NCBI RefSeq assembly: GCF_028641065.1
Contig: NC_073409.1
Location: 11,346,001 to 11,410,000 of the forward strand
Length of the DNA stretch: 64,000 nt
Direction: 5' to 3'
Origin: Leucoraja erinacea
Taxonomy: Eukaryota
Positions 1,048 through 61,019 of the stretch are shown one piece after another. Position 1 is the first letter of the stretch, and each line of letters starts with the position of its first letter. The position numbers and the translations under genes were made by a program. The notes under the pieces are model-generated. The model saw only the letters and a program-made list of their open reading frames with translations. It had not been told where the DNA came from and did not search any database.

Positions 1048-1336
1048 AGATAGACACAAAAAGCTAGGGTAACTCAGCTGGACAGGCAGCATCTCTGGAG
1101 AAAAGGAATGGGTGATGTTTCGGGTCAGTGACCCTCCTTACGACTAGTTAGGGAAAAGGGAAACGAGAGATATAGACAATGATGTAGACAAAGGCAACGA
1201 ATAAAAGATATGCAAAAGGGTAACCCGAAACATCACCCATTGCTTCTCTCTAGAGATGCTGCCTGGCCCGGTGAGTTACTCCAGCTTTTTGTGTCTATCT
1301 TTAGTTTAAACCAGCATCTTCAGTTCCTTCCTACAT
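1048..1336. mobile_element. Penelope pLTR-derived fold-back element with 14-bp target-site duplication
   Basis: Inverted arms (gacacaaaaagct...gtttcgggt / acccgaaac...agctttttgtgtc); TSD AAATGATAGCTCAT at 1034-1047 and 1337-1350. Confidence 0.75.
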
Positions 1337-3342: not shown

Positions 3343-3992
3343 TCTGTGGCTTGTAAACATGATTTACCTTTCATAAAACTATGTTGACAGTTTAATTACA
3401 TTATGCTTCTCAAGGCGACGAGTCATTTCTTTCTTGATTATAGACTCCAGCATTTTGCCAATAGAAATTAGGTGAAAAGACCAATCGTTCTTTATTTTTA
3501 TATTCCTCCCTTCCTAGACAAAGTAAACACATTTGTAGTTTTCTTGTCTGCTGGTATCTCACGAGAACTCGACGCGTTTTGAAAAACTTCAAGCAAAGGC
3601 TCCAGTATTTCTACAACCACTTCTTTAAAAGGGTTAGAGAATAGCACAGCAATTGGGGAAATTCTATGCATACTTTTGGCTTCCATAACAATAGATGGAT
3701 ATTGTTGCCCATGATTACTTCATGTAAAATTCCCTGTGAAAAGTATTTCAACATAAGCATGTCAGAATGCATGAGAGAATAATCCACTTTCTGAAGGGGA
3801 ATTGGCAAATAGAAATAGTTCATTAACTACCAAAGCCAAAAACTTCTGGCAGGTTCCTTTCAATTACTTTTGCAATTTTATTTCTCTGCAATTAACCATT
3901 AATTTGCTACAGTTCCCCTGTATAATGTGATGCTTATGTCTATAATCCATCTTAATCATAATCTGGAGCCTCGATTGTATTAAATCAATTAC

Positions 3993-4187
3993 CTGAAGCA
4001 TTAACATTAATTCTTCATCGCCATTATCCACTGCAATATCAAAAGCTGTTTTGCAGAATTTACTTGGTGTGTGAACATCAGCTCCATATTTTATCAAGAG
4101 TTCAACCACGTCTTGGTGACCGTGCTCCACAGCCCAGTGAAGTGCTGTCATCTTAAGCATATCCTTTGCGTTTATGTCAGCTCCATT
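3993..4187 (-). CDS. GABPB1: GABPB1 coding exon 3 (195 bp, ankyrin repeats)
   Basis: ttttgacag|AAT GGA GCT ... CTT CAG|gtaatt; [65 protein letters not shown]. Confidence 0.95.
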
Positions 4188-4516
4188 CTGTCAAAAGTAA
4201 AGAGAATGTGTAGGTGGCATTATCACTTTTATTAAATTAATTATCTGATATTATAAACATTATCCACAGGAATATCGAAAGCTATTTTGCAAACATTGTA
4301 ATAAAATGTGAACAGAGGGAAAGTAAGGGTATGCATTTTAAAAGAAAATTATTCTGATGTTCATACAAATACTCTGAGCACAAGAACATTACTATGTCTG
4401 AAATAGAGTGCTGATATGTTTTGATTTAAATCAACATTAGACTTTAACATTCCTCTTTTAATTTGCAATAGTTTTATGGATCAGAAGGAGGTATAGAGGG
4501 ATATGGGCCAAATGTG

Positions 4517-5942
4517 CAGGCATGAGACAGGAAAAAAATGAAAAAAGAGGAAGAGAGATGGGGATTTAGGAGTTCCAAGTCCACCCCCTTTATGCAGAAC
4601 ATTTTTGATAATTATGCCTTGAAATGACAGTTTTCTTGCCTGTTTACCCTTAATTTAGACTTGATTTTTTAAATTGTACCTTAAAATAACACATTTTCCT
4701 TGCTTGTCACTTCTTAATTTACACAGAAAATGTGTGATAATCATACCTTAAAATGACACCAACTCCTTGCTTGTTTACACTTAAGTCATATTGAAAATAT
4801 TTTATATTACACGTACACCTACACTTGTAACATATTGTTCCTTACTTGTTTATTCTAATTAGAGAGTATTCTTTACACTGGAAATGTTTTATAACTTTTT
4901 GATAATTATACCTTGAAATGACCCCATTTCCTTGCTTGTTTACCCTTAATTTATACTGTAATTATTTTTTAAATTATACCTTACAATAACACATTTTACC
5001 TGATTGAATCAGGTAAAAAAACAAAAAAGAATATTGTAGTTTCTATGACATACAGACTCTTGAATGCTTTTGTTTTACAAATGAAACAGTTCTCACATTT
5101 TAACAATGTAATCGCTACTCTACATGTGCGGAGCTGAGCGCTAGCCATAGAGATGCGCATGCAAAGACGGTCGGCCCGGTAAAATCGATTCCGCAAATTT
5201 CCACGCACTCAACCATTGGCACAGCAGCTCACACTCCATTTATAGCGGAGATTTAGACCGATTTTTTTAAACTGTATTTCGAAATCCACGGATCCGCGGA
5301 GAAAACTCATGCCTGCCTACCTCCACTCACCTTCTCTCCCTCCCCTGTCCCACCTCCACTCACCCTCCCTCTCCCACTCTCACTCCCCCTACTCTCAACT
5401 CCCCCCCTCTCCTACCTCCATTCCCCCTCCCTCCCACCTCCTTTCTCTCCCTGCACTCACCCTCTCCTCGCCTACCACACCCACTCTCCCTCCCATCTCT
5501 CCTACCTCCACTCTCCCTCTCTCCTACATCCACTCACCCTCCCTCCCTGTCCCCTCTCCTACCTCCACTGACCCTCCCTCCCCCTCTACCTCACACACCC
5601 CTCCTTCCCCTCCCACCCACCCCACTTAATGCCTCCACTTACCCCCCCTCCCACTCTCCCCCCTGCTACCCACTCTCCCCCTCCCCCCTCTCCTTCCTAC
5701 CTCTCTCCCTCCCTCCCTCTCCCACCTCCATTCACCCCTCCCCTATCTCCACTCACCCTCCCTCTCTCCCCTCTTCTACCTTTGCACATGCGAAGACGGT
5801 CAGCCCGCACCGCGTACAAGCTTTCCGCTAAAATCGACACACTTTCCGCTAATAGCCATTTATATTGGAGATTTAAGCATTGTTTTTTTTTTTAAATCGT
5901 ATTTCAAAATTCGCAGAAATTCGCGGATCAATCTCATGCCTG
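4517..5942. mobile_element. non-autonomous TIR element (hAT-like CAGG termini) with internal AT-rich degenerate tandem units, a C-rich tract and a duplicated right end
   Basis: CAGGCATGAGA at 4517 against TCTCATGCCTG ending 5942; a second CTCATGCCTG at about 5306-5315; no clear TSD. Confidence 0.45.
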
Positions 5943-6229
5943 AATAGTGCCTGACAGCCTGGTCACCACATATGTATTCTCAGAGCCTACACCATCTCCA
6001 GGACATTCACCATGTTCTTTGTTTAATAACCCAGTAAACCTTTATCATCAAGGCCTTGAGAAAGTTTTAGATTAACATTGCATCTGAAATGCTTAATAAC
6101 GTTCCCTCGGTACTGCACTGAGACAGTCATCCAAAAGTATCTGATGTCGGCTCTGTAATAGAAATTGAACCCACAACTGCAAGTATGATCCATGGTTGAC
6201 ATAGAATGATAGAATTTGTCCAACCATAC

Positions 6230-6397
6230 CTTCACTAGTACCTCCACAATGTTTGCATGACCTGCTGATGCTGCCATATGCAGTGGTGTTCTGTCCACTT
6301 TGGTTCTTGCATCCCGACTCACTCCTGCGCGAAGCAGCACTTCTGCTGTTGAATAATGACCATATTGAGCTGCTAGATGAAGGGGTGATGTTCCAAG
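6230..6397 (-). CDS. GABPB1: GABPB1 coding exon 2 (168 bp, ankyrin repeats)
   Basis: attacag|CTT GGA ACA ... GTG AAG|gtatgg; [56 protein letters not shown]. Confidence 0.95.
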
Positions 6398-6911
6398 CTG
6401 TAATATTGGTAAATAGAAATTAACATAAGAATGGCAGTTATAGGAAAGCAAAAGAAAAAAATGAAAATCTGAAATTAAAAAATTGCAGGCAGCAATTGTG
6501 AAGAAAGAAATTAATGTTTATGTTAATATCCTTTTGTAGTTGGAGTTATCTAATCTGAAACCTTTAGTTTAACATTCATAGAATTATAAGTTGTACACCA
6601 CTGAAAAGGGCATTTAGGCCCTCAATGTCCATGACAAATATTTGTCCATCTAACCAATCATGTTAGCCTGCATTAAATGTATATCCTTCTATGCCTTGCC
6701 TATTTAAGTGTTTGTCTAAATGTCTCTTAACTGTAGGGATTGTTTCTGATTCCAAATGCCAGAACCCAACCACTCTCTGTGTAAAAAAAAAACTTTCCCT
6801 TCAAAATCATTCCTCTCACCTTAAACCTATGCCTCTTGTTTTTGATATCTTACCATGGGGTAAAGATTATGACTATCTACCCAGCTATCATGTGCCTCTT
6901 ATGACTCTGCC

Positions 6912-11528: not shown

Positions 11529-11924
11529 ATACATTTATTGTAATGTGATTATTAGAACTGTGGAGTTCTCAAGATGTGGTCTAACTGGTATTGTATAGAT
11601 TTATAGTATAACTCCCTAGTTCTAGTGCACTGCCTTGATTAATTGAGGATAGCATCCTTCATGGCTTTTTTAACCACCTAAATGAATTGTGCTGCTATAC
11701 ATAATGATCAGTGTATCCACTGGTTTCCTGAAATGCAGGTGCTAATGGAATCAGTGCTGAAGGAGGTCATTGCAACATTGTGTAGAGAGGAAAAGACACA
11801 AAGTGCTGCAGTAACTCAGCAGATCAGGCAGCATTTCTGGCCCACTGAATTGCTCCAGCACTGTCTTTTTTGGTAAACCAGCATCTGCAATTCCTTGTTT
11901 CTACAGAGAGAGATGGATTACTGA

Positions 11925-12383: not shown

Positions 12384-12631
12384 TGACAGTGCTGCTGTCA
12401 GACCATGGCCTGTGCTAGGAACTGGGGCAGATCCTGCAATAAATTACCCTTTAGTAGGTGCGGAGAGGCTGCCTGGGAAAACAGGCTGGGACAAGGCAAT
12501 GCATTCACTTTGCGGTAAGGTGTGGAGCTTGGTGCTGCATATTCATCAGCAAGGCAAGTGCCGGTTGTTGCTGGGACTTGGCAATGGCTGCTGCCTAGGT
12601 GGACTGAGTAGCCGGACCCTAACATCTCCCT

Positions 12632-12805
12632 GTTTAAGAAAGAACTGCAGATGCTGGTAAAATCGAAGGCGAGCACAAAATGTTGGAGAAACTCAGCAGA
12701 TGAGGTAGCATCTATGGAGCGAAGGAATTGGCAACATTTCCAATTCCTTCTGTCCATAGATGCTGCCTCACCCACTGAGTTTCTCCAGCATTTTGCGTCT
12801 ACCCA
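12632..12805. mobile_element. Penelope pLTR-derived fold-back element
   Basis: aagaactgcagatgctgg...gcatctatggagcgaaggaattgg / ccaattccttctgtccatagatgctg...ccagcatttt hairpin. Confidence 0.65.
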
Positions 12806-16215: not shown

Positions 16216-18177
16216 TGAGGAATGGGGGTACTGATTGTGGATGATCAGCCATGATCACATTGAATGGCGGTGCTGGCTCAAAAGGCCGAATGACCTACTC
16301 CTGCAACTATTGTTTATTGTGTATTGTTGCAGCTCTACAATACATTGGCCACGTTTGGAGCACTGTGTATAATACTTGCGGACTGCTATAGAAAGGATCA
16401 TTAAACTGTCAAGGGTGCAACAAAGATTTACAAAGATGTTACGGGGTCTGGAAGGTTTGAGTTACCAGGAGAGCTATGGGGATCATTATGGATGCCTTTG
16501 CTACCTCCTAGAATTGTCAATGCCTATGCACTTGTGGATGATGTTTCATCAAATAATATTCACATTAGACCAGTGCAAAACAAGTTGGAATATAACCATC
16601 TAGTTTTAATCAAAGGCATTACTACCATAAAATATTTCTACAATCACCATTGATCAAAAACTCAATTGGACTATCCTCAGAAATACACTGGCTGCAAAAG
16701 TAAGTAATGCAGTGTATGACTCAATTGACATTCCATTGCCTTTCCAGCCTGATCAAATATTCATTTGCTTGGATGAGAACAGCTCTATCAATGCTCAAAA
16801 AACTCAACACCAACATCCTGGACAAAACTGCCCACTTGATTGCTACTCCATTCAATACCTGAAATACTCATTCCCTCCTATATTGGTGAACCGTTGCTTC
16901 AGTGTGTACCATCTATAAAATTCACTGCAGCTCAGCTTCTAGGCTGTAACAGACATATTCCAAACCTACACCCTCTCACTGAGCAATGTGCTATCATCTG
17001 CATTTATTACCAACCCTAACATGGAATCTAAATCCTGAAACCTCTTTCCTAATGGACCATGAACAGCTTCGCAAGAAGGGCTGCAGTAGTTAAAGTGCTC
17101 AGCAACAATTTCTCAAACAATTAGGAACAGGTAATAAATCATAATCATACTTTATTAGCCAAGTATGTTTGCAACATACAAGGAATTTGATTTGCCATAC
17201 AGTCATACCAATAATACTGATCATGTAATGAAAAATTAATATCTTTTGATTGCATCTTCCATCCTCCATAACCTGTGCTCACGTAAAAACCCTGAAATGT
17301 ATGTTGTGATATGTACATCTGTCATGCTTGTCATCTATTAATTGGCTGCAGCCTTGCAATGCTTCAAATTATTTGTGCTTCTTTAGTTTGATATCTCTGA
17401 TTGTAATAATGTAACATTAAATGCAATATCTTCAGCTGCCAAGGCTCCAAACTCCAGAATTCCACCATACATCTCCCTTTTTCTAACTTTAAAGCTGTCC
17501 TTAAAATCGATTTGGTCGTCACTCCTAATAATCTCTTAATGCAGTCTGGTTTGATAATGCTCCAGTCTTCTTAGGCATTACCTGAGGATTGAGAACGATT
17601 TGCTTCCATTATAGTTCTGTTCATTTTGAGTTAATAATGAGGCTAATTTAGAAAATGCAGACTATTTTGCAGATGGGGCAAAGATGTTTGATGATGCGGT
17701 TGGGTAGTTTGGAACCTGGTGTACAACGTCTTATTAACAATGGGGTTGTGAATCCCGTTGATTCACGGGCTAAAAGTTCTTAATACCACCATGTCCTTGC
17801 TGACTTCCACCTAGTTACATTAACCTACCCATGTTAGGAAGATAGCTCGCTATTTCATTCGTATCTGCCTATGCACCTATCTGTCTGTCAGTGTCACCTG
17901 TCCATGAATCACTTCCTTTTCTCCCCATGGTAGTCTGTGAGTCCCATATTGACCTCATCATTCACCTCAGAATCGACGTGAAACAAAGAATCGACGTGAA
18001 ACAAGTCATCCTCAACCTCAGTGAGCGAGAGCAGGCTCCTCACAGCGACACTCGAGTGCAGTCCTGAGAAATGAAGTGGCCGCTGGTGTCTTTCTAAATA
18101 TTTTAGGGGAAAATTAGGCTCGAGTCTTGGGTACATTCATCCCTTAAACTTGTCTTGGTGATGTTAATTATCTAAAT

Positions 18178-18305
18178 AGACAAAAATGCTGGAGGAACTC
18201 GGTGGGTGCAGCAGCATCTATGGAGCGAAGGAAATAGGCAACGTTTCGGGCCGAAGCCCTTCTTCAGACCGATGGGGGGCATCTGCAGTTCCTTCTTAAA
18301 CAATG
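18178..18305. mobile_element. Penelope pLTR-derived element with hammerhead core and 12-bp TSD
   Basis: TSD AATTATCTAAAT (18166-18177 and 18306-18317); minus strand GGT-CTGAAGA-A-GGGC-TTCG-GCCC-GAAA-C-GTT-GCC. Confidence 0.7.
18236..18272 (-). ncRNA. putative minimal type-I hammerhead ribozyme motif
   Basis: CUGANGA / GAAA core, helix II closed by a C(UUCG)G tetraloop, palindromic AACGUU helix III. Confidence 0.55.
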
Positions 18306-18384
18306 AATTATCTAAATGTTCTCTAATCCCATGGGACAACACTTCTTTACCACCGATTTAGATCCGGTAGATGAGTGATATTTT

Positions 18385-20779: not shown

Positions 20780-20960
20780 GTAAAAAAGGAACTGCAGATG
20801 CTGGTTTATGCTAGAGATGGACACAAATGCTGAAGTAACTTAGTGGGACAGGCAGCATTTGAAGAAAATAGATAAGTGAAGTTTCAGATCGGGACCCTTC
20901 ATCTGAAGAAGGGTTCTGACCCAAAACGTCATGTATCCATTTTCTTCAGAGATGCTTCTA
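20780..20960. mobile_element. Penelope pLTR-derived fold-back element
   Basis: aaggaactgcagatgctgg ... ctgaagaagggttctgacccaaaacgtc ... agagatgct. Confidence 0.65.
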
Positions 20961-23095: not shown

Positions 23096-23361
23096 GTAAG
23101 ATATCTGTTATTACTGCTTAGACATTAAACTTAGAAAAGATTTTATAGCGTAAAGCAGGCTGCTCAACCCAGTTGTGCCTAAGACAATTTAATGTTCATC
23201 ATTAGTCCCTCTTATTCTTTATCTCATTCCATCAACATTTCTCATAATCCTGAACAAGTTCCTAATCACCTCCTAATCGCCTCCTAATCCTACCACCATC
23301 CCCTTCTCCTGTAGAGCTTCCTGCACAAATCAGTGGACAGCACACAAGAGTGGAATCCATG

Positions 23362-23526
23362 ACAGCATCTCTGGAGGGAAGGAATCGGTGACGTTTCGGG
23401 TCGAGATCCTTCTTCAGACGGTCACCCATTCCTTCTCTCCAGAGATGCTGCATGTCCTGCTGAGTTACTCCACCCTTTTGTGTCTATATCTTTGATTTAA
23501 ACCAGCATCGGCAGTTCTTTCCTACA
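23362..23526. mobile_element. Penelope pLTR-derived fold-back element
   Basis: gacagcatctctggag...gtgacgtttcgggtcgagatccttcttcagac / gtcacccattcc...agagatgctg. Confidence 0.7.
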
Positions 23527-38726: not shown

Positions 38727-39305
38727 GTAGGCTCTTTGATAAGTTATAGACTGATACAGTGTGGAAACAGGCCCTTCGGCCAAACTTGCCCATACCGGCC
38801 AACATGTTCCAGCTACACTAGCCCCACCTGCCATTATTTGGTCCATATCTCTCCAAACCTGGCCAAGCCATGAACCTGTCGAACTGTTTCTTAAATGTTG
38901 GAATAGTTCCTGCCTCGACTACCTCCTCTGGCAGTTTGTTCCATACATCCACCACCAAAAAGATACCTCTCAGATTCCTTTTTTTTTTTTTTTCGCCTTA
39001 TACCTATGTCCGCTGGTCCTCGATTCACCTACTCTGGGTAGGAGACTCTGTGTAACAGACTCTGTGCAGCTACCCAATCTATTCCTCTTATGATCATATA
39101 CACCTCAATAAGATAACCCATCCCCTTCGCCTCCACCTATGTCCGCTGGTCAACCTCGATTCAGACCCTACTCTGGCACATCCTCGGAGATCTTCTGTGT
39201 TTCCAGACTCAACATCTGTGCATCTACCCAATCTATTCAATACTATAAATGTGGGTATGATCATATACACCTCAGCGGGACAGGCAGCATCTCTGGAGAA
39301 GGAAT

Positions 39306-39340
39306 GGGTGACGTTTCGGGTCGAGACCCTTCTTCAGACT
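39306..39340 (-). ncRNA. putative minimal hammerhead ribozyme motif in a Penelope fragment (39272-39575) nested in CR1
   Basis: Minus strand AGT-CTGAAGA-A-GGGT-CTCG-ACCC-GAAA-C-GTC-ACC. Confidence 0.55.
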
Positions 39341-40289
39341 ATAAATGCGGCCTCACCAACGTCTTGTACAACTGCAACATGACCTCCCAACTTCTATACT
39401 CAATTCTATTCCGCTTGGGCAATTTACACCCCAACGGCATGAACATTGGCTTCTCTAATTTCAGGTAGCCCTTATTGTCTCCTCCCCTTCTCAGCTCTCC
39501 CTCAGCCCTCTGGCTCTTCCTATTCCTTTCTTCTTTCCACACCTGCTGAGTTTCTCCAGCACTTTTATCTACCTTCTATACTTAATATTCTGGCTGATGA
39601 TGGCCAATGTGCCAGAAGCCTTTTTGACCACACAATCTACCTGCGAATCCATCTTTAGGAAACTATCAACTAACTCCTAGATCCCTCTGCTCTACAAAAC
39701 TACCCAAAGCCCTACCGTTCACTGTGTAGGTCTTGCCCATGTTAGACTTATTAAAATGCAACACCTCACATTTTTCTGCATTAAATTCCATCAACATTCC
39801 TCAGCCTAATTGGCCAATTGATCAAGATCCTACTACAGTTTTTCACAGCCATCTTCATTATCTGCAAAACCAACCTACTTTTGTTTCAAAAGTGACAAAT
39901 AATGAAAATTAAGTTGGCAAATGTGGGTTGGAGGTGGGAAATTCTAAATTAACTGTAGTTGGACATGCAAATCAAACTCAATGTTATAATGTGTGGATAA
40001 ATTGACCAAAGTGGTGCTTATGATAATGTCCACTTTGAGAAATGTGCATATGATTGGTGAAGGCTGGGTTGGAGGGGCTGTGAAGCCTTCATGAAGACTA
40101 TCAGCGCATTATTGGTGACGAGGGAACTATGTAACTGGTGCATATGCGTAGTACTGAGCCTACATTCCTTCACACCAGCTTGCCTGCGTGTTCTGTGCTG
40201 ATTGGTTCTCAGTGTGGAGAACGGCAGGTCCAACTGAGAGGAGGAATTTGGTTGTAGAGCAGGTACGTCGTCAGGAGGCAGATGTGAGA

Positions 40290-43123: not shown

Positions 43124-43352
43124 GTGTAGGAAGGAACTGCAGATGCTGGTTTAAACCGAAGATAGACACAAAAAGCTGGGTTAACTCAGCGGGTCAGACA
43201 GCATCTCTGGATAAAAGGAATAGGTGACGATTCAGCTCGAGACCCTTCTTCACACTGAGAGTCAGGGGACAATCACGACCCAAAACGTCACCTATTCCTT
43301 TTTGCCAGTGATGCTGACTGACTCGCTGTGTCACCCCAGCTTTTTGTGTCTC
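43124..43352. mobile_element. Penelope pLTR-derived fold-back element
   Basis: gtaggaaggaactgcagatgctgg...acccttcttcac / acccaaaacgtcacctattcc...agctttttgtgtc. Confidence 0.7.
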
Positions 43353-43481
43353 TTTAAGATACACGATGAACAAGAAAGGAGGCAGCACTAATCCCTGTGG
43401 TATACCACTGGACAAAGATCTCCAATCTGAAAAACACCTCCACCACATTCTGATTCCTAATCAAGGCAATTTTGTATGTTA

Positions 43482-49314: not shown

Positions 49315-49491
49315 TTATTGAGGCCATTGAAAATTCACACAATTATAGAAGAGTACATAGGCTGCTGGCGACTGGACCTTCTGCTCAGAAATGCTGGTTA
49401 CTTTTGCATCGTTGAACTCATGCCAGTTCTGTGTCACTGGGTTCTTGCAGAAGGCTGTGTAGTGGCCACTGTCCAAGGTGCCGGTGTGGTT
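49315..49491 (-). CDS. USP50: USP50 last exon (His box, stop TAA)
   Basis: ccacag|AAC CAC ACC ...; NHTGTLDSGHYTAFCKNPVTQNWHEFNDAKV...AAYVLFYNCVNFQWPQ*. Confidence 0.92.
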   Translation of the reverse strand, partial: NHTGTLDSGHYTAFCKNPVTQNWHEFNDAKVTSISEQKVQSPAAYVLFYNCVNFQWPQ

Positions 49492-50175
49492 CTGTGGACA
49501 GGGCACAGAAATTTGACAACTTCAGGTAAAGATCTTATATGAAACATGTTCACACATTGAAAAGCTCAATGTATGGCTTACACTTTGGATCCAAAATTGG
49601 CTTGGCCATACATAAGAGGAGAATGATAGCAGGGAATTTTCCTGAATGGAGGTCTGTGATCAGTGGCATTTCACAAGGATTAGAGCTAGAACCTCTGTAA
49701 TGTAAACAATTGATGCAACGGAAAATCAAGGTGGGCGGATTACATTTGCAAATGACACAAAAATTGAAGTGATTAGTGAACAGGTTGTCAAAGGAAGCAG
49801 CAAGACATATTTGAGGAGGAGGTGGATACATTTCTGGTACATAAAACATCTGTGGCAAAGATCTGGTATTATGATACATGATCAGCCAAGATAATGTGGA
49901 AGAGCTGAATGAACTTCTGTTTGTAGTTTGCCATGATTCTAAGGTTCATTTGTGAACCGCCATCTGCCTGATCTTTCAGTTAGATTACATTCATGTGGAG
50001 ACGGGACTGCCCATCCATCACTGCGAGTTCCCATCTGTTACCAGCGTCCATACTCCCCTGACCCAGCCCCTCGAACAGACACGGATCTTTATAAAATGCT
50101 GCTGTATACTTTGCAAAAGAGAGTTTGATGAATGGATCGGAACTTCATTAACAAACAGATGAAGGTGAGACTCAC

Positions 50176-50308
50176 CACCACAGCATAGAGCTGATACTTC
50201 AGCTGCTGACTTGATGGATTGGTTGTGTACTGTGTCAGATCGAGATCTTCAAGTGGAAAAGTCACCGTGCTCGTCAGTTTCCTGTGGCCATGATCGTCTG
50301 ATTCAAAG
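50176..50308 (-). CDS. USP50: USP50 exon (133 bp)
   Basis: caccag|C TTT GAA ... GTG GTG|gtgag; FESDDHGHRKLTSTVTFPLEDLDLTQY...KYQLYAVV. Confidence 0.92.
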
Positions 50309-50650
50309 CTGGTGGGGAAAGGGAATGATTATAGCGCAGACAGCACTATTGAACAATTGTGAGGCAAGACATTGACACCGAAAGGGAGAACAACAGGGAG
50401 AGAGGGGCAGTCCATGCCCTTGAATATTCCAGTGGAAGGTGTTTGATGGCTCCTACACAGAGACAATCCCCATCATTTAAGTTATGCAAAGATTGGCATC
50501 AAAGACTGGCACTGATTAATCATTAATGGAAACTCTAGCTCACAGAGAGTCAAGCTCGGTCACCGAAGCTGGTGCTTCCTAGTGGGACTAGGGACCATCT
50601 CCTGCCCCCACCTCCCCTGACGGAAGGAAACCAAAGCTGGGAGAACTCAC

Positions 50651-50793
50651 CGCTTCAGGTGGATGATGATGATGTCAGGAGCCTTCAGCAGCTGGATACT
50701 CTCTGCCTGGTCCTGCTTCTGGCCGCAGAAGGAGCAGAAAGGCTGGTCCCTCGAGCTCAGAACCTCTTCTTTAAAGAACAGCCTGAGACAGTC
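50651..50793 (-). CDS. USP50: USP50 exon (143 bp)
   Basis: ttgcag|GAC TGT ... AAG CG|gtgag; DCLRLFFKEEVL...CSFC...KAPDIIIIHLKR. Confidence 0.92.
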
Positions 50794-51679
50794 CTGCAAT
50801 CAGCAGCCATCATTAGCAAAGCTGCAGCAGACGCCACACACCCCAACACAACACAACATTGTCAGCCTGATACAGATCCCCTCCCTGTGGGCCATTGGAG
50901 CCTGAGGTCAGGAGATCCACGTTGACCAGCCTCTACTGCAGAGGTTTCACTGACCACATTGCTATCCCTGCAGCGCTGCCCAGCCCAGGCTGATGCAGCC
51001 GGCAACCAGGAGACAGCCTACACACCAGCTGTGCAATTGCAATAGCCCAGAAACATCTACCACTGGAGTGTGAAAAGGGGAATGGTTAAAGATGTACAGG
51101 GCAAGTTTTTTTTACACAGGTGCCTGGAATTTGCTGCTGAGGATGATGGTGGAAACCGATACGATCGTGGCATTTTACTGGTTTTTGGAGAGACATATAA
51201 ATACCCAGGTAATGATGGGATCTGGATCACATGGAGGAAGAAGATAAGATTGATTTGGCCTTGTGTTCAGCAAAGATAATGTTGGCCACAGGGTCTGTCT
51301 TGTACTGTACAGTTCTACATACTTGATGAAAGGCAAACGGTGATTCGAATGAAGTCCGTGCAGATTGAAATCCTACCTCTCACCACAACAATACATCTCA
51401 ATCCCAACAAGTTTCACCTGGGAGCACAACTAATCTGCATGATGAATGAGAAATTGCCCAACCTTCTAGTTCCCCTCCTGACGTTTTGTTTGACCCCTGT
51501 GTCTGTTTCCTCCCTCCACCTCGCAACCTTTTGAAACGTCTTTGGAAACGGAAGGTCGCATATCGGCAGGTTTCTGGCCAACTACACAATCAAGTGTTAG
51601 TGCTAAATGTGGTATCAGGTTAGTGCACCGAAAGTTTGAAATCCATTTTCTTGGCATTAACATAATGGTGAGTCTTTAC

Positions 51680-51844
51680 CTGAATGGAACATCTGCTGTC
51701 AGTTGGCATGGGGAGTGAGAGGCTCAGGAAGTTCTCGGTTTGGTTGGACTTGTGGTAACAATTCAGGCAGAGTTTTAAGTAGCTCAGTTGCCCTTGGAAC
51801 AACTTTGTAACGATTGATGTTTCTATGTTTCTCACACCTGAAGA
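51680..51844 (-). CDS. USP50: USP50 exon (165 bp)
   Basis: tctcag|TCT TCA GGT ... ATT CAG|gtaaag; TSIVTKLFQGQLSYLKLCLNC...FLSLSLPMP. Confidence 0.88.
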
Positions 51845-51929
51845 CTGAGAAGAGAATATTCTTCAGTTCACTGTCCATCTCAAAAGGTCTGGTGTGTCTT
51901 AGTCAATACTCGCCAACAAGGGTGATTAT

Positions 51930-52190
51930 AGGGCGGCATTGCAGTGCAGCAAGTAGTGCTGCTACCTTGCAGCTCCAGTGACTTGGGTTCAATCCCAACC
52001 TTGGGTGCTGTTGATGTGGAGTCTGCTCGTTCTCCGTGCGACCACACAGGTTTCCCCAACTGCATTGGTTTCCTCCCTCATCCCCGTGCGACTGGTGGCT
52101 ACAAATTGTCCCTGGTGTTTGTGGGCAGTGGGAGAATCATGGCGGAGTTAATGGGTTTGTCAGAGAGATGAGGTTCCAGGGATATAAGTG
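51930..52190 (+). mobile_element. tRNA-derived V-SINE (HE1-like), near full length
   Basis: tRNA-like head ggcggcatt...gggttcaatccc (B box) followed by the tgtggagtctgctcgttctccg core. Confidence 0.6.
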
Positions 52191-53041
52191 GGACAATGAA
52201 ATATCTGTGAGGGACATGTCAATGGGGCTGCCCCATGGAGAGAGGCTGTGGCAAAGGTGTTGGAATTGTTGTCAAATATCAATCAATACATGATGGTATT
52301 ATCAATCGCAACATCGCCAGCAAATGCAATGTTGGGCTGGTACAGTGAATAATGAAGTGATAGTCACACAGCTTGGAAACAGGGCCTTTGGCCTGACTCA
52401 TCCATGAAGCCCCATCTCAGTTAGTCCATGTACACGTTTTTGGCCCATATTCCTCTAAACCGTTCCAATCCATGTACCTGTCCAAATATCTTTGAAATGT
52501 CACTACTGTACCAGTAGCTACGGCAGCTCGTGTCATATACTCACCACCCAATGTTTGAAAAAGTTATCACTCGGGTTCCTATTAAAACTTTTCCCTCTAG
52601 TGTTTTACTTCCCTATGGAATAATGGAATAATGGCAACTAAGTTGGAGGAACTCAGCGATTCAGACATCATCTGTGGAAGGATTGGACGAACCCCGTTTC
52701 AGGTTGGGACCCTTCTTCAGACTGAAGAGTCCCGACCCAACACATTGTCTGCCCATTACTCTTACAGATGCTGCCTGACCCAACTACGTTCTCCAGCAGT
52801 TTTTGTTTTGTTTAAGAATTCAGCACCTGCAGTCTCAGGTCACTATTGGCAAGTGAGTTGTCTATTTGTACATTTTATGAGTAAAGTAATCTTTTGAAAG
52901 AAGAAGGGCCAGAGGGGCAACAGCTGTTTTAAGCAGTCAGGTTGTCAGGGAAGGTGAGTGGAATGGGCTGCTGACTGCTCTTCAGTGTAAATGTCCTCTC
53001 CCTTCAGTGCTGTCCACTGCGTACATTCCCCGAGCACTCAC

Positions 53042-53237
53042 TCTCTTCAGATCATTTTGGAGAACGTTGAGAAAGAAGAGAAGCAGCTCCTGGGCATCTT
53101 GCTGGGTCCCATCGGAGAAGGAAGCGTGCATCTTTCCCAGAACTCTCTTCACTTCATCCGGAAAGATGTACACACTATCCCCCAACCACATGTCCATCAC
53201 TAATGCCGAGAAGGCATTAGATAGCTCCCCACGGCCT
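53042..53237 (-). CDS. USP50: USP50 exon (196 bp, QQD box)
   Basis: atgcag|A GGC CGT ... AAG AGA|gtgagt; GELSNAFSALVMDMWLG...QQDAQELLLFFLNVLQNDLKR. Confidence 0.92.
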
Positions 53238-53738
53238 CTGCATAAGGAAAGATCTGTCAGAAGTGGAAAAACTATCCGAGTGCAGGTGATACTGATCCAT
53301 TAGATGGCGCCAGATTTCACTCACAGCCCACAATTCATGCCACAACCCCCTCCCCTCACCCCCTCACCTCAGCCAACCCCAACCCCATTAACCCCTCACC
53401 CTCAACCCCACTCACCAAACCCACCTCTCCGCGTATCTCACTCACCCACTCCTGGTTTACCCAGCTAACCCCCCTCCACCAATCCCACCACGACCCACAC
53501 ACACCCACTCAGCCCTTACTCTCCTTTCACTCCTTCACCTCACTCACCCGTTCCCACTCACCTCCCCTTTCACTCAGCCCTCACTCCAATTCTCATCTTG
53601 CCCCATCCAGCCTTCCCCTGGCCCTCTCAACCAACCCCTCCCATTCACCTCATTCCACCCACTTCTCCCCTTACCCTCGCCCCTTCAGCCGACTGCTGGG
53701 GGTGGGGGGTGAGGGCCGAGTGCTGAGCTGGTGCCCAC

Positions 53739-53960
53739 CTGCTTATATCATCAGCGTAGGCCCCGGTGATGAAGTACTCGACCAGTGGCGTGGTGTTGCT
53801 CAGGCACTGCAGGATGCAGTTCATGTAGCAGGTGTTGCCCGTGTTGCCCAGGCCTGTCTGCCCGGCGCCCCCATCCTGCCGCTCGATGCCAGCGCTGGAG
53901 ACGCTGGAGTCAAACAGCGAGCCATTGCTGTACTTGGGGACAAGGTGGTAGTATCGTGCT
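53739..53960 (-). CDS. USP50: USP50 exon (222 bp, Cys box)
   Basis: ccccag|A GCA CGA TAC TAC ... AGC AG|gtggg; TGLGNTGNTCYMNCILQCLSNTTPLVEYFITG. Confidence 0.9.
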
Positions 53961-54114
53961 CTGGGGAGGGGGGGAGGGGTAGAGGGGAAAGTGGGGGATG
54001 AAGAAACAGGAAGAGGGGGTGAAGAAGGGGGGGGGGGAGGGGGAGGGGTGAAGGAATGAGAGGAAGGTGAAGGTTGGAGTATGGATGGGTAGCAGTTGTG
54101 GAGAGGGGCGGGTA

Positions 54115-55250
54115 GAGAGGGTGAGGTGGAGGTGGTGGGAGGTGGGAGGGGGTGGGAGGGGAGGGGAGAGGGGTGGGAGATGGAGGGGTGGGAGGTGGAG
54201 GGGTGGGGGGTGGAGGGGTGGGAGATGGAGGGGTGGGAGGTGGAGGGGGTGGGAGGTGATGGGGGGTGGAGGGGTGGGGTGGGAGGTGGAGGGGTGGGAG
54301 GGGAGGGGTGGGAGGTGGAGGGGTGGGAGGGTGGGAGGTGAGGGGTGGGAGGTGGAGGGGGGAGGTGGGGGGGAGGTGGAGGGGTGGGAGGATGGAGGGG
54401 TGGGAGGTGGGGAGGGGAGGGAGGGGTGGGAGGTGGAGGGGGTGGGAGGTGGAGGGGTGGGAGGTGGAGGGGAGGGGAGGAGGGAGGGGTGGGAGGTGGA
54501 GGGGGGGGAGGTGAGGGGTGGGAGGTGGAGGGGGGTGGAGGTGGAGGGGTGGGAGATGGAGGGGTGGAGGGGTGGAGATGGAGGGGTGGGGTGGTGGAGG
54601 TGGAGGTGGGGTGGAGGGGTGGGAGGGGTGGGAGGTGGAGGTGGGAGGGGTGGGAGGTGGAGGGGGTGGGGGTGGGAGGGGTGGGGGTGGGAGAGGAGGG
54701 GTGGGAGGTGGAGGGGGGGGGGGGGTGGGAGGTGGAGGGTGGGAGGTGGAGGGGTGGAGGGGTGGGGGGGTTGGAGGGGTGGGAGGGGGAGGGGTGGGTA
54801 GAGGGGTGGGAGGTGGAGGGGTGGGAGGTGGAGGGGGGTGGGAGGGGAGGGGTGGGAGGTGGAGGGGTGGGAGGTGGAGGGGTGGGAGGTGGGCTGGGTG
54901 GAGGGGTGGGAGGTGGAGGGGTGGGAGGTGGAGGGGTGGGAGGTGGAGGGGTGGGGGTGGAGGGGGTGGGAGGGTGGAGGGGTGGGAGGTGGAGGGGTGG
55001 GAGATGGAGGGGGGGGGGTGATGGAGGGGTGGGAGATGGAGGGGTGGGAGGTTAGGATGGGGTGGGAGGTGAGGGGTGGGGGGGTGGAGGGGTGGGAGGT
55101 GGAGGGGTGGGAGGGTGGGGGGGGTGGAGGTGGAGGGGGTGGGAGGTGGAGGGTGAGGGTAGGGGGTGGGAGGTGGAGATGGAGGGGTGGGAGATGGAGG
55201 GGGTGGAAGGTAGAGGGGTGGGAGATGGAGGGGTGGGAGGTGGAGGGTAG
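54115..55250 (+). repeat. G-rich minisatellite, about 15-bp unit TGGGAGGTGGAGGGG
   Basis: Directly visible tandem units over about 1.1 kb. Confidence 0.9.
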
Positions 55251-55354
55251 TTGAGAGGGTTGAATAAAAAACTAATCACAACTCTGCCACTGACGGGACG
55301 TTGCCCCTTCGCCGGGCTGACCCCGCGTGACCCCACCCGCGTGGGTACACTGTG

Positions 55355-55567: not shown

Positions 55568-55634
55568 CTGCCAAGAGCCCGTTAACCATTCAATTTATGG
55601 GACTCAAGTAACGCTGTGGGTACGGGACATGATA

Positions 55635-56320
55635 TAGACAATAGGTGCAGGAGTAGGCCATTTGGCCCTTCAAGAGAGTTAGATGTGGCACTTGTGGCCA
55701 AGGGGATCAGAGGGGGATGGAGAAAAGGCAGGTACGGGATACTGAGTTGGATGATCAGCCATGATCATATTAAATGGCGGTGCAGGCTCGAAGGGCCGAA
55801 TGGCCTACTCCTGCACCTAATTTCTATGTTTCTATGTAAGCCAGCACTGCCATTCAATATGATCATGGCCGATCATCCACAATCTACCCCGTTCCTGCCT
55901 TCTCCCCATATCCCCTGACTCCGCTATCTTTAAGAGATCTATCTTACTCTCTCTTGAAAACGTCAAATGAACCAGCCTCCACTGCCTTCTGAGGCAGAGA
56001 ATTCCACAGATTTACAACTCTCTGTGAGAAAAAGTTTTTCCTCATTTATTTCTAAATGGCTTACCCCTTATTTATAAACTGTGGCCCCTGGTTCTGGACT
56101 CCCCCAACATCGGGAACATGTTTCCTGCCTCTAGCGTGTCCAAACCCTGAAGAATCTTATATGTTTCAATAAAATACCCTCTCATCCTTCTAAATTCCAG
56201 AGTTTACAAGCCCAGCCGCTCCATTCTATCAACATATGACAGTCCCGCCATCCTGGGAATTCACCTGGTGAACCTATACTGCACTCCCTCAATAGCAAGA
56301 ATGTCCTTCCTCAAATTCCT
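55635..56320. mobile_element. two CR1/HER1 3' fragments in opposite orientations
   Basis: + copy ends tatgtttctatgt at about 55835; - copy 55840-56320 includes RKDILAIEGVQYRFTR. Confidence 0.75.
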
Positions 56321-57022
56321 AAAGCGACAAGTGTAGCATTTCCTGCGGTTGCAAGGGAACGTACCAGGGGAGGGGATGGTTTGGGTGGGAAGGGATGAAT
56401 TGACCAGCTCCCTGTCCACTCCCCTGGTACTTTTCTTTGCAACCACAGGAAATGCTACACTTGTCGCTTTACCTCCCCCCTTGACTCCATCCAAGGACCC
56501 AAGCAGTCTTTCCAGGTGAGGCAGAGGTTCACCTGCACCTCCTCCAACCTCATCTATTGCATCCGCTGTTCCAGGTGCCAACTGCTCTACATCGGTGAGA
56601 CAAAGCGCATGCTTGGCGATCGCTTCGCCCAACACCTCCGCTCAGTTCGCAATAACCAACCTGATCTCCCAGTGGCTCAGCGCTAAAATTCCCCTCCCAG
56701 TCCGAATCCGACCTTTTGGTCCTGGGCCTCCTCCATGGCCAGAGTGAGTCCTACTGCAAATTGGAGGAGCAGCACCTCATGTTTCGCTTGGGTAGTTTAC
56801 AGCCCAGCGGTATGAACATTGACCTCCAATTTCAGGTAGTCCTTGCTTTCTCCTTCCCCTCCCCCTCCCAGCTCTCCCACAGCCTACTGTCTCCACAACT
56901 TCCTTTCTTTTTCTCGCCCCCCCCCCACATCAGTCTGAAGAAGCTTCTCGACCCGAAACGTCACCTATTCCTTCGCTCCATAGATGCTGCCTCACTCGCT
57001 GGGTTTCTCCAGCATTTTTGTC
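56321..57022 (+). mobile_element. Penelope-like element 3' part: GIY-YIG endonuclease + pLTR with hammerhead core and 5' inversion
   Basis: + strand reads ...KCYTC...GPKQSFQVRQRFTCTSSNLIYCIRCSRCQLLYIGETKRMLGDRFAQHLRSV (IY...YIG-E-T-R signature); ends cagtctgaagaag...cccgaaacgtc...ccagcatttttgtc; 56321-56370 is an inverted copy of about 56420-56470. Confidence 0.85.
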
Positions 57023-58289
57023 CAAACTCCCATGTCTGCTGCTCTCCCTTCACAGCTGTTTCTATGATTCTCTACCTCGCACTATGTTTTTGTTTCCGGT
57101 TTACGAACAGTTTAGATTACGAACCGTTCTCAGGAACAAAACCCTCGAGGTAACACATGCTTTGCTTGCACCTCCCTCTACTCTGCAAACCAAAGATCAC
57201 CCAAAACTCCATTCCAACAATAATTTGGCAAGGCTAGAAAACAAGGTGAGCCAGTCTTATGGACAAGATTCACTTAAATATAGGGAAAAAAGTAAGTCAG
57301 TCCAAAGACAGAGCAGATATGGCATAGAGTTATACATCATGGAAGCAGTCCCTTCAGCCTAAATCATCGACACCATTGTCTAGTAGAGCTAATCCCACTT
57401 GCTTGCGCCTGGCCGATATCCCTCAACAACTCTCCTATCCTTGAATCTGTTGAAGAATCTTTTAAATGTTAATTGTACCACCTCTACCAATTCTTCTGGC
57501 AGCTCATTCTACTTATGCACCACATTCTGTGTGGAAAAGGTTGACCCTTAGACCACTTTCAAATCTTTCTCTTCACACCTTAAACCTTTGCCTTTCAGTT
57601 TTAGACTCCCCTGCATCGGAGAAAACACTATGGTTATTGGTAAGGCAAATAGAAAGATTGGAAAGCTGAATTGTCAGGGCAATGTCAGACAGAATTTGAT
57701 CCTGTTAAGTGTTCTGGGGAAATCAATCAAGGATGGTTATATCAATGAATGGCAAGCCCTGAGGGAGTATTGAGAAATAAAGGTATCTTGACATACTGCA
57801 CTAAACCAAAAATCCCTGAAAGTGGCAGTGGAGATAGATAGCAGGGTGAATTAGGCATATGGGATGCTTGCCTTTATCGGCCAAGGCACAGGAGGGAGGT
57901 CTTGGTTTGACTTTATAAAGCATTGTTTTTGCCATAGCTGGAGCACTGTGTACAGTCCAGTTGCTACACTATATGTGATTGCACTGGAGAGGGTGCAGAG
58001 GAAATCCACCTGAATGTTGCCTGTAGTAGTTACCTAAAATTGGAGATTTCAATGTTCATACCATTGGGTTGTAAGCCCCCCACACATTAATATGAGGTGC
58101 TGTTCCTCCAGTTTGCATGTGGCCTCATCCTGGCAATGGCGTTGTTCAAGCACTTAAATTGCCACAGAATGAAGGCCTATGGACTAAGTGCTGATACTTA
58201 AGATTACTGTAAAGATTTACTTGATTTTGGCATGTACATGATGGCCCCAAGATCCTGTTTCTGTGTTAGGTTACGCAATGACACAAACA

Positions 58290-60118
58290 TTACCTCACCC
58301 TACCCACACCCCCACTACCACCTCATACACCCCCGCTACCACTACATACACCCCCACTACCACTACATACACCCCCACTACCACTACCCACACCCCCACT
58401 ACCTCTACACCACACCCCCACTACCTCTACACACACCCACTACCTCTACATACACCCCCACTACCTCTACCCACACACCCACTACCTCTACATACACCCC
58501 CACTACCTCTACATACACCCCCACTACCTCTACCCACACCCCCACTACCACTAGATACACCCCCACTACCACTACATACACCCCCACTACCACTACCCAC
58601 ACCCCCACTACCACTACATACACCCCCCACTACCACTACATACACCCCCCCACTACCTCTACCCACACCCCCACTACCACTACCACACACCCCACACCTA
58701 CCTACTACCCACACCCCCACTACCACTAGATACACCCCCACTACCACTACATACACCCCCACTACCTCTACCCACACCCCACTACCTCTACATACACCCC
58801 CACTACCACTACCCCACACCCCCACACACCACTACCACTACCCACACCCCCCACTACCACTACATACACCCCCACTACCACTACATACACACCCCACTAC
58901 CTCTACCCACACCCCACAACCACCCACTACCACTACACTACCCCCCACTACCACTACATACACACCCACTACCTCTACCCACACCCCCACTACCCCACAC
59001 CCCCACTACCACTACCCGCCCCCCCACTACCTCTACCTACACCCCCACTACCCCTACATACACCCCCCCTACCACTACCCACACCCCCACTACCACTACA
59101 TACACCCCCACTACCACTACATACACCCCCACTACCTCTACCCACACCCCCACTACCACTACATACACCCCCACTACCACTACCCACACCCCCACTACCA
59201 CTACCCACACCCCCTACACTACCCACCACCCACCTACACACCCCCACTACCTCTACATACACCCCCACTACCACTACATACACCCCCACTACCACTACAT
59301 ACACCCCCACTACCTCTACATACACCCCCACTACCACTACCCACACCCCCACTACCTCTACATACACACCCACTACCTCTACCCACACCCCCCCTACCTA
59401 CTACATACACCCCACTACCTCTACATACACCCCCACTACCACCCACACCCCACTACCACTACACCTACACACCCCACTACCACTACATACACCCCCACTA
59501 CCACTACATACACCCCACTACCACTACATACACCCCACTACCACTACATACACCCCCACTACACTACACCACCCCACTACCACTACATACACCCCCACTA
59601 CCACTACATACACCCCCACTACCTCTACATACACCCCCACTACCTAACATACACCCCCACTACCACTACCCACACCCCCACTACCACTACCCATACACCC
59701 CCACTACCACTTTACCATACACCCCACTACCACCCCACACCCCACTACATACATACACCCCACTACCACTACATACACCCCCCACTACCACTACATACAC
59801 ACCCCACACCTACCACTACACCACCCCCACTACCACTACATACAACACCCAACACTACCACTACATACACCCCCACTACCTCTACCCCACACCCCACTAC
59901 CACTACATACACCCCCACTACCACTACATACACCCCCACTACCACTACCCACACCCCCACTACCTCTACATACACCCCCACTACCTCTACATACACACCC
60001 CCACTACCACTACATACACCCCACTACCACTACATACACCCCACTACCTCTACATACACCCCCACTACCACTACATACACCCACTACCACTACATACACC
60101 CCCACTACCCACTACATG
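58290..60118 (+). repeat. C/A-rich minisatellite, about 21-bp unit CACCCCCACTACCACTACATA
   Basis: Directly visible tandem units over about 1.8 kb. Confidence 0.92.
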
Positions 60119-61019
60119 AACCCCATAACCCTCATCTATCTCTTGTTTCACCTCTCAACCACATCACTCTCTTAAACCATCCTATTATTCCCATTGAAGC
60201 CACGGGCCTCCCTCCAGCAAAGTCACACTCACTTTTCCATCCCCAGATCTTTCTCCTCCCACCCCAACATCCCTCGGCAGCTTCTCCCAGTTCTGGGACA
60301 TGCCTGCAGCACTGAAGCCCCCAGAGAAGGGAGATACTGTTGCAGTGAGAGAGGCCCTTAGTTTAGTTGCACATTTTGGTAAACCCTCAAAATGGCTTTT
60401 AAATCGTAATTTGAAACGCTGGTCTTATATTTATACAAAGTGACATTCCTCTGAGGCTATTTATGATCCCATCAGGATCCTTGAGTTATATAGTGTGGAC
60501 ACAGGCCCTTCAGCCCAACTTGCCTACGCTGAAGTTGTCTAATCAAGTTTGTCATACTTACCCGCTCCGGGCCCAAATTGTTCCAAATCTTCCATGTACT
60601 AAAGTATCTTTCAAATGTCATAATGCACCTGTCTTTCCTACTTCCATTGTTCAGCCGTTCACTAAACTAATTAAAAAATCTCTAGATAGCTAGAATCCAT
60701 TTTTGCAGGGCTAAACAGGCACGAGGAATCTGAGGTGTGTGGGCAAACTGATTCCAAAGTTGGCTGGGTGATAGGAGGCAAAGCAAGTGGTTTATCTGAC
60801 TGGAAGTCTGGGACCAGTGGATGACTGGGGCGTGAGTGGTCCTTGAATATATTGGATGCTTTCCCGAGGCATTGTGAAGTACAGAAGAAGTGGAGAATTT
60901 GTGGGACCAGCGCAATAATTACATTGAATTAATTAATTATGCTTTTGATTAAACTCATGATTAGGAAATCTTCCAACCAATAGATTTTCTGAAAAATGAT
61001 CATGTATTGGTTGTCGTGT

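What the first reader, a model, noticed from the sequence alone, without database searches (positions are those of the whole stretch)
18178..18305. Family of short Penelope-derived fold-back elements carrying a minimal hammerhead ribozyme, with helix-II covariation
Seen in the sequence: at least 8 related 130-300 bp elements (1048, about 11790, 12632, 18178, 20780, 23362, 39272, 43124, about 52640). They match the 3' terminal repeat of the GIY-YIG Penelope fragment at 56321-57022 and are mostly arranged as inverted arms. Two have clean TSDs of 14 and 12 bp, so they inserted as discrete units. Several copies keep CTGAAGA-A-[helix II]-GAAA-C-GTH. Helix II is GGGC-TTCG-GCCC here (a C(UUCG)G tetraloop) but GGGT-CTCG-ACCC at 39306-39340, a compensatory C-G/T-A swap. 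Helix III is the loopless palindrome ACGT and helix I is only 2-3 bp. Established: Penelope-like elements carry minimal type-I hammerheads thought to cleave as dimers, and an extra A after A9 occurs in some natural hammerheads. Inference: this is a non-coding, ribozyme-bearing retroposon family (retrozyme-like) mobilised by Penelope. It places potential self-cleaving motifs and long RNA hairpins in GABPB1/USP8/USP50 introns and about 200 bp from the USP8 promoter.
Basis: partly seen in the sequence, partly recalled or inferred. Interest (0 to 1): 0.7.

Follow-up and report, generated by a model that had tools for sequence, protein, structure and literature searches.

The report
Penelope stubs with minimal hammerhead
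These short repeats are end pieces of a protein-coding Penelope-type jumping gene that carries an already described minimal hammerhead-ribozyme motif; each mirror-image copy was likely built anew at its landing site from two short DNA copies of the element's uncut RNA, so they record how the element inserts rather than being a separate ribozyme-driven family.

Summary
The repeats, both TSDs and a textbook minimal type-I hammerhead at 18178 are real. The rest needs correcting. They are the terminal ~95-133 nt (hammerhead, stem, optional ~36-nt tail) of Neptune-type Penelope elements. Full-length parents exist, and 0.1-5 kb insertions share the build. 18178 is not a fold-back: it is a tail-less arm plus an inverted 24-nt tail, one of 549 such with varied joints. 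The 'covariation' is a private T>C on a subfamily U.G pair (23 of 2765; loop control 15). Only 2 window copies keep an intact motif, both antisense to USP8. Head-to-head insertions carry exactly one tail (37 of 38 with TSD; 30 of 30; 20 of 20). They join at hammerhead palindromes (1640 identical joints) and mirror private variants in both arms. Short arms start at +1, not at the cut site, and form no lineage of their own. Best model: two-site twin priming on uncut RNA with run-off at the RNA start. The architecture and motif are published; I found no paper stating this mechanism. The scan has already reached this reading many times, in this genome and others.

The parts
18166..18177 (.). Left target-site duplication copy
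   Evidence: 12-bp direct repeat with 18306-18317; may extend to 17 bp with a 2-nt indel (read)
18178..18278 (-). Tail-less arm: Neptune pLTR from about -9 to about +93, ending at the inner priming site
   Evidence: 93 of 103 nt identical to the pLTR of full-length L208
18237..18270 (-). Minimal type-I hammerhead motif (C3 at 18267, extra A 18260, helix II 18259-18248, predicted cut 18240/18239); C at 18256 is a private variant
   Evidence: descriptor hit; 23 of 2765 cores; family reads carry the other base at 18256
18279..18302 (+). Inverted tail-only arm: last 24 nt of the ~36-nt tail, ending at the outer priming site
   Evidence: 24 of 24 identical to the L208 tail
18306..18317 (.). Right target-site duplication copy
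1048..1336 (.). Head-to-head insertion: tail-less minus arm with 3' UTR piece, tailed plus arm, 14-18-bp TSD; cores decayed
11793..11898 (.). Small decayed head-to-head stub without hammerhead
12631..12803 (.). Fold-back joined at the helix-III palindrome (centre +28.5), tailed and tail-less arms, no core
   Evidence: 183 loci carry the exact joint
20781..20958 (.). Fold-back in a USP8 intron, joined near +1; cores fail the descriptor
23361..23526 (.). Asymmetric fold-back in a USP8 intron; helix II broken
39270..39578 (.). Minus arm with the second intact motif (antisense to USP8), plus a sense piece of GIY-YIG end and UTR
43124..43356 (.). Fold-back, tailed minus arm and tail-less plus arm; core broken
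52638..52833 (.). Fold-back joined at the palindrome around +1, inside the minus-strand UCH gene; core broken
56320..57022 (+). 5'-truncated Neptune-type copy: CX4CxxC linker, GIY-YIG, 3' UTR, decayed hammerhead, tail-less end; first 57 nt inverted

Best explanation
The 18178 element and its relatives are stub insertions of Neptune-type Penelope-like retrotransposons, likely made when the element's enzyme primes reverse transcription from both cut target strands at two fixed sites about 36 nt apart on the uncut leader RNA. One cDNA would start at about +95 (tail-less) and the other at about +133 (tailed). Each would stop at the inferred RNA start (+1, an initiator-like TCAGT just ahead of the hammerhead), earlier, or far upstream on read-through tandem RNA. 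The two would then be joined head to head, often by annealing at palindromes inside the hammerhead, and repair would leave a 13-15-bp TSD. At 18178 the outer cDNA stopped after 24 nt, so there is no hairpin. The hammerhead belongs to the parent's pLTR. Its cleavage likely needs a dimer or the element's protein, and it did not define these inserts. Shown here: the anatomy, parentage, one-tail rule, joint hot spots and +1 pile-up. Inferred: the priming order, that +1 is the transcription start, and any ribozyme activity.
For: Full-length parents L202 and L208 have direct pLTRs, and the hammerhead and tail run on into the element's leader; L208 is flanked by an 11-bp TSD. Exactly one tail in 37 of 38 TSD-bounded head-to-head insertions of 97-4971 bp; displaced-flank control 1 of 407 (binomial p 3e-10). 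Also 30 of 30 palindrome-joined copies (one decayed tail judged by eye) and 20 of 20 inverted-tail copies. Head-to-head pairs 136 versus 45+-6 random; tail-to-tail 35 versus 37+-6. Joint centres match self-annealing minima at +21, +26-28, +61, +15-20 and -3; 1640 and 183 exact joints. The tail lies on either side of the joint's central mismatch (18:12), which one self-primed cDNA cannot give. Variants mirrored in both arms: 25 versus a mean of 6 and maximum of 14 in shuffles. 177 of 198 short arms start at -12..+6, mode +1/+2. No pile-up at the cut site. Agrees with anole Poseidon in vitro: two start sites, both strands extended, uncut RNA used (PMC11167929).
Against: No enzymology or transcript-end data for this family. 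Without the TSD filter only 62 of 77 classifiable close pairs are one-tailed, although about 45 of the 136 pairs are expected by chance. Only 38 of 423 candidate pairs had a TSD. 212 of 467 arms start inside the unit rather than at +1. The 18178 arm itself starts about 9 nt upstream of +1. The +1 edge could be an RT stop at the pyrimidine tract rather than an RNA end. The data do not separate one RNA copied twice from two sister RNAs. The inverted piece at 56320-56376 is not anchored at either site.
Confidence: 0.72

Rival explanations
1. Complete +1..+133 stubs are re-transcribed from an internal promoter and mobilised in trans by Neptune protein, as a SINE-like family.
For: Shared 5' and 3' ends. 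About 4 of 5 front-reaching arms are short. D. virilis Penelope has an internal promoter in the pLTR (PMC2377424 passages). Progeny of a stub would look the same as run-off products.
Against: No site differs between 190 short and 47 long arms beyond chance (170 tests, smallest p 0.022), and the main haplotypes occur in both. The long fraction is similar in both lineages (6 of 33, 40 of 201). The UTR types I read trace to GIY-YIG ends. The test is weak for small or very young stub lineages.
Confidence: 0.12
2. Retrozyme: the hammerhead cuts multimeric transcripts into monomers that circularise and are re-inserted.
For: The motif fits the minimal consensus. Non-LTR retrozymes derive from pLTRs and were reported in one cartilaginous fish (bioRxiv 10.64898/2026.07.22.740005, parts 1-3 read). 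Same-strand neighbours are somewhat enriched (104 versus 75+-8).
Against: Only 2 short arrays (1.9 and 2.9 copies) overlap the motif in 1.064 Mb, and no ends fall at the cut site. Inserts span the uncut site. The helices are minimal, not canonical. Of 239 copies, 47 keep core, helix II and helix III.
Confidence: 0.05
3. Inverted arms arise by self-priming (fold-back) of one cDNA or of an antisense RNA, with the endonuclease resolving the ends, as proposed for Adineta and in reviews.
For: Palindromes at joints and mirrored variants fit a fold-back. This is the published interpretation (PMC3846280 and PMC8557442 passages). The 56320 inversion may be such a case.
Against: In 18 of 30 copies the tail is on the arm that would be the copy of a tail-less template. 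In the 18178 class the arms do not overlap at all and the joints vary (549 matches).
Confidence: 0.1
4. The 18178 copy is co-opted as a regulatory ribozyme or promoter element of USP8 or the ankyrin gene.
For: It lies in a CpG-rich stretch about 200 bp ahead of USP8 reads, keeps its core, and is present in two other organisms' DNA.
Against: It is antisense to USP8 and 10% diverged from its parent, with an ordinary substitution in helix II. The monomer prefers a competing hairpin (-12.4 versus -10.8 kcal/mol). About one arm per 2 kb makes proximity unremarkable.
Confidence: 0.03

Closest known systems
Minimal type-I hammerheads in pLTRs of metazoan PLEs (Cervera and De la Pena 2014, PMC4209133; main text parts 1-2 and supplement 2 parts 1-2 read)
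   Same: Fits the consensus CUGANGAH, G10.1-C11.1, GAAA, palindromic 15.2/16.2, NUH and a short helix I. Mostly single motifs in truncated copies; opposite-strand pairs were noted there.
   Different: No cartilaginous fish is in the supplement text searched (file 1 not searchable). Helix II is only 4 bp here.
EN+ PLE insertion unit: partial tandem, adjacent inverted 5'-truncated pLTR, 30-40-bp tail at one end, TSD (Arkhipova 2013 PMC3846280; Craig 2021 PMC8557442; passages read)
   Same: Identical architecture from 97 bp to 5 kb; Neptune-type CX2-5CxxC linker before GIY-YIG.
   Different: Those papers suggest self-priming and endonuclease resolution. Here the one-tail rule is counted and argues for two primed cDNAs.
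Anole Poseidon PAc in vitro (Frangieh 2024, PMC11167929; parts 1-2 read)
   Same: Two internal RT start sites bounding the tail, both strands extended, AT-rich targets (TSD GC 35%), hammerhead cut not needed, no RNA ends at the cut.
   Different: A different clade. That paper saw no strand difference in start site and did not link the two sites within one insertion.
Non-LTR retrozymes (Cervera 2020, PMC7229834 passages; Li 2026 bioRxiv)
   Same: PLE-related, type-I hammerhead, non-coding short units, long TSDs.
   Different: Defined by tandem arrays of hammerhead units and circular RNAs. Here units are single or head to head and are not bounded by the cut site.
L1 twin priming (recalled, not read here)
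   Same: Inverted piece plus sense piece inside one TSD; the 18178 class has exactly this layout.
   Different: The second primer site is fixed, not random, and the arms usually overlap in template.

Membership tests
EN+ Penelope-like element, Neptune/Nematis type | Single ORF with RT and C-terminal GIY-YIG | tested here: met
   L202 844-aa open frame with RT motifs through GIY-YIG; GIY-YIG Pfam hits; RVT_1 only weak on a fragment (E 0.047)
EN+ Penelope-like element, Neptune/Nematis type | CX2-5CxxC linker and two Cys between GIY and YIG | tested here: met
   CX4CxxC and CxxC in the translations; definition from PMC8557442
EN+ Penelope-like element, Neptune/Nematis type | RT phylogeny placing it in Neptune rather than Nematis | not tested
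   no reference set in hand; the clade label rests on the linker motif
EN+ Penelope-like element, Neptune/Nematis type | pLTRs (direct or inverted), optional 30-40-bp tail, TSD | tested here: met
Minimal PLE hammerhead (min-HHR) | Core, extra base after A9, G10.1-C11.1, palindromic 15.2/16.2, NUH, short helix I | tested here: met
   18178 and 39272; 39 hits in 1.064 Mb versus 0, 0, 1 in shuffles; consensus
Minimal PLE hammerhead (min-HHR) | Covariation in helix II across masters | tested here: not met
   only one-sided U-A to U.G changes between lineages; the C-G form is private
Minimal PLE hammerhead (min-HHR) | Self-cleavage as a dimer or with protein help | not testable with these tools
   no assay available
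Non-LTR retrozyme | Tandem repeats of hammerhead-bearing units | tested here: not met
   2 short arrays among 31 TRF arrays of period >=50 in 1.064 Mb; the sample is 0.05% of the genome
Non-LTR retrozyme | Unit ends set by ribozyme cleavage | tested here: not met
   5' starts at +29..+35 number 3,3,1,1,3,1,5 of 495, like their neighbours
Non-LTR retrozyme | Circular or monomer RNA | not testable with these tools
   fragmented libraries only
Independent non-autonomous family (SINE/MITE-like) | Own lineage, fixed joint and arm-specific variants | tested here: not met
   limited power for small lineages

The most novel reading that the evidence does not exclude
Penelope-like elements insert by two-site twin priming. 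A protein dimer extends both target strands, one from each of the two fixed start sites on an uncut hammerhead leader. Run-off cDNAs ending at the RNA start anneal through the ribozyme's own palindromes. This single rule would explain the inverted pLTR, the tail at one end only and the flood of 95-230-bp stubs, and would put the transcription start 3 nt ahead of the hammerhead core.
Probability: 0.55. Interest if true: 0.6.

Novelty: new member of a known kind. Interest (0 to 1): 0.3.

Why it matters
As a ribozyme or element family it is ordinary: a further PLE minimal hammerhead, here at very high copy (15,042 exact cores of one lineage; 606 arms in 1.064 Mb). The value is mechanistic. How PLEs make inverted ends and one-sided tails is stated as open in the papers read. 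The counted one-tail rule, the either-side tail around the central mismatch and the +1 pile-up give sharp predictions for the existing in vitro system. Searches for this mechanism in print found nothing relevant by title or abstract start (subscription papers not covered). The scan's own notes reached it repeatedly, which is not independent support.

Tried and rejected
Rfam at E<=5: no hammerhead family. The 1419-aa frame at C18 was a pyrimidine repeat, not a full element. The first junction pattern without a central base gave only 4 loci; the 15-nt overlap form gave 1640. The all-versus-all upstream extension was confounded by inverted arms and was replaced, which overturned my earlier 'random truncation' view. 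Core versus flank conservation (0.93 versus median 0.91) is uninformative, because copies decay after insertion. The dimer energy omitted helix I and is not used. No RNA holder was listed for the stretch. RNA reads laid came from another coded organism, and 80-97% ran on unlike the window. They show no locus-specific transcript, and no begin/end pile-up at the cut site in fragmented libraries; I use this neither way. No empty site was found. The first exon of the ankyrin gene was not located, so intron status of 1048, 11790, 12632 and 18178 is open. The names GABPB1 and USP50 rest on recalled synteny; the calls show ankyrin and UCH domains only. Supplements of the bioRxiv preprint were not available and may list this fish's retrozymes. 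File 1 of PMC4209133 could not be searched.

Full report
Observation. The element at 18178-18302 lies between 12-bp direct repeats. On the minus strand it holds a minimal type-I hammerhead with C3 at 18267, an extra A, a 4-bp helix II, the ACGU palindrome and a 3-bp helix I. All nine listed places and 56932 match one 132-nt profile. The profile finds 606 arms at 14 bits or more in 1.064 Mb (the window plus 100 ten-kb stretches chosen by position, 6 of them next to the window) and none in reversed sequence. Eight of the nine are head-to-head pairs. 18178 itself is a tail-less arm joined to an inverted 24-nt tail, with no hairpin (z 0.09). Only 18178 and 39272 pass the descriptor in the window.

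Parent. The 56399 frame is GIY-YIG; the first look found 58,393 candidates in the genome. Among 44 GIY-YIG copies, shared sequence reached 21 to about 950 nt further upstream in the 42 with a match. L202 and L208 are full-length units of about 3.8 kb with direct pLTRs. In them the hammerhead, stem and tail continue into a shared leader. L208 ends tail-less inside an 11-bp TSD. The CX4CxxC linker points to Neptune or Nematis; no tree was built. The 18178 arm is 93 of 103 identical to the L208 pLTR and its tail 24 of 24.

Covariation. In 239 copies the inner helix-II pair is T-A 171, T.G 36 and C-G 3. Genome-wide, 23 of 2765 exact cores carry the C, against 15 for a loop T>C. The swap is therefore a subfamily A>G plus a private substitution. 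The two lineages differ by one-sided, wobble-keeping changes in helices I and II, which is compatible with structure but weak evidence.

Ends. The 3' ends are bimodal near +95-102 and +126-132, as for the two RT start sites of anole Poseidon (PMC11167929). Of 423 candidate head-to-head pairs (sample plus search-selected loci, 5 duplicate loci dropped), 38 had a TSD, against 1 of 407 with displaced flanks. They range from 97 to 4971 bp, and 37 carry exactly one tail (23 of 24 in the unselected part). TSDs are mostly 13-15 bp. Without the TSD filter, 62 of 77 classifiable pairs are one-tailed. Head-to-head pairs are three times random expectation and tail-to-tail pairs are not enriched.

Joints. 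1640 copies share one joint at a 15-nt palindrome overlapping helix II, and 183 loci share one at the helix-III palindrome. These positions match computed self-annealing minima. In the first 30 of the 1640, each has one tail, 18 on one side of the central base and 12 on the other. They come from several subfamilies, show no fixed arm-specific change, and 26 gave a TSD of 8 bp or more. In 26 of the 30 (4 dropped for indels), 25 variants are mirrored in both arms, against a mean of 6 and a maximum of 14 when arms are shuffled. The 18178 build has 549 exact-flank matches with varied joints. All 20 examined have a tail-less sense arm and 11 pass the TSD score. Its own joint type occurs 3 times, at 2 independent sites.

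5' edge. A scan note suggested that arms stop just ahead of the ribozyme, and I tested it. Of 246 anchored arms, 48 run on into UTR. Of the other 198, 177 start at -12..+6 with a mode at +1/+2, close to a control built to start at +1. A further 212 of 467 arms start inside the unit. There is no pile-up at the cut site. The +1 base sits in TCAGT, which I recall as an initiator consensus. D. virilis Penelope starts inside its pLTR from an internal promoter (PMC2377424 passages). Short and long arms share haplotypes.

Mechanism. Inferred: both nicked strands prime cDNA, one at each site, on RNA that is uncut at the hammerhead. The cDNAs run off the RNA start or stop earlier, are joined head to head and repaired. 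A single self-primed cDNA cannot place the tail on the copied arm, nor give the non-overlapping 18178 class. Re-mobilised stubs are not excluded but have no support.

Host context. Pfam places ankyrin exons on minus (3867-6517), USP8 domains on plus (20549-44684) and a second UCH gene on minus (49318-55051) (265 of the 361 frames of 60 aa or more were scanned). Stranded reads of a related coded organism put a plus transcript from about 18.5 kb. Both intact motifs are antisense to it. Contigs of two other coded organisms run from unique flank into the 18178 element, so the insertion is shared and not recent.

Comparison and verdict. The motif class (PMC4209133) and the insertion architecture (PMC3846280, PMC8557442) are published. 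Retrozyme criteria (PMC7229834 passages; bioRxiv 2026) are not met. PMC8969392 was seen as passages. Searches found no paper stating two-site twin priming for PLEs. The scan's notes hold 35 similar findings in at least 15 genomes and 119 in this genome. Verdict: a new member of a known kind, with a testable mechanistic by-product; interest 0.3.

Noticed in passing
window 56320-56376 / 56415-56471: The 5' end of the GIY-YIG fragment is a 57-nt inversion of coding sequence, not anchored at either priming site. It may be a true fold-back or a randomly primed second cDNA; Rfam's MIR6462 hit is this hairpin.
   Followed up: no
window 53246-55275 and 58242-60312; L161 3720-7090: Long purine/pyrimidine-skewed or low-complexity tracts giving spurious long open frames (shown for L161; the window frames had no Pfam hit beyond a UCH exon). 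In L161 the tract abuts a truncated Neptune copy.
   Followed up: no
L208 3961-4342; L204 3715-3786: A 36-bp tandem array inside the N-terminal part of the Neptune ORF region, varying in copy number between full-length elements.
   Followed up: no
L202/L208 model +51..+58 with +109..+116: The tail is predicted to pair with the stem downstream of the hammerhead, enclosing the inner priming site; the overall fold is no better than shuffles.
   Followed up: partly
L080 6810-6998; L070 about 5020-5100; L104 6100-6380: Short head-to-tail repeats of pieces of the element end (period about 64 in L080); same-strand neighbours are modestly enriched.
   Followed up: no
window 17969-18004: An 18-bp tandem duplication upstream of the element that both other organisms' contigs lack.
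   Followed up: no
window 55634-55879: Nested inverted arms of another abundant repeat, likely a LINE 3' end (recalled), just left of the Neptune fragment.
   Followed up: no
L002/L003, L136/L137: Identical flanks on a large and a small contig, suggesting duplicated haplotigs that slightly inflate genome-wide counts.
   Followed up: partly
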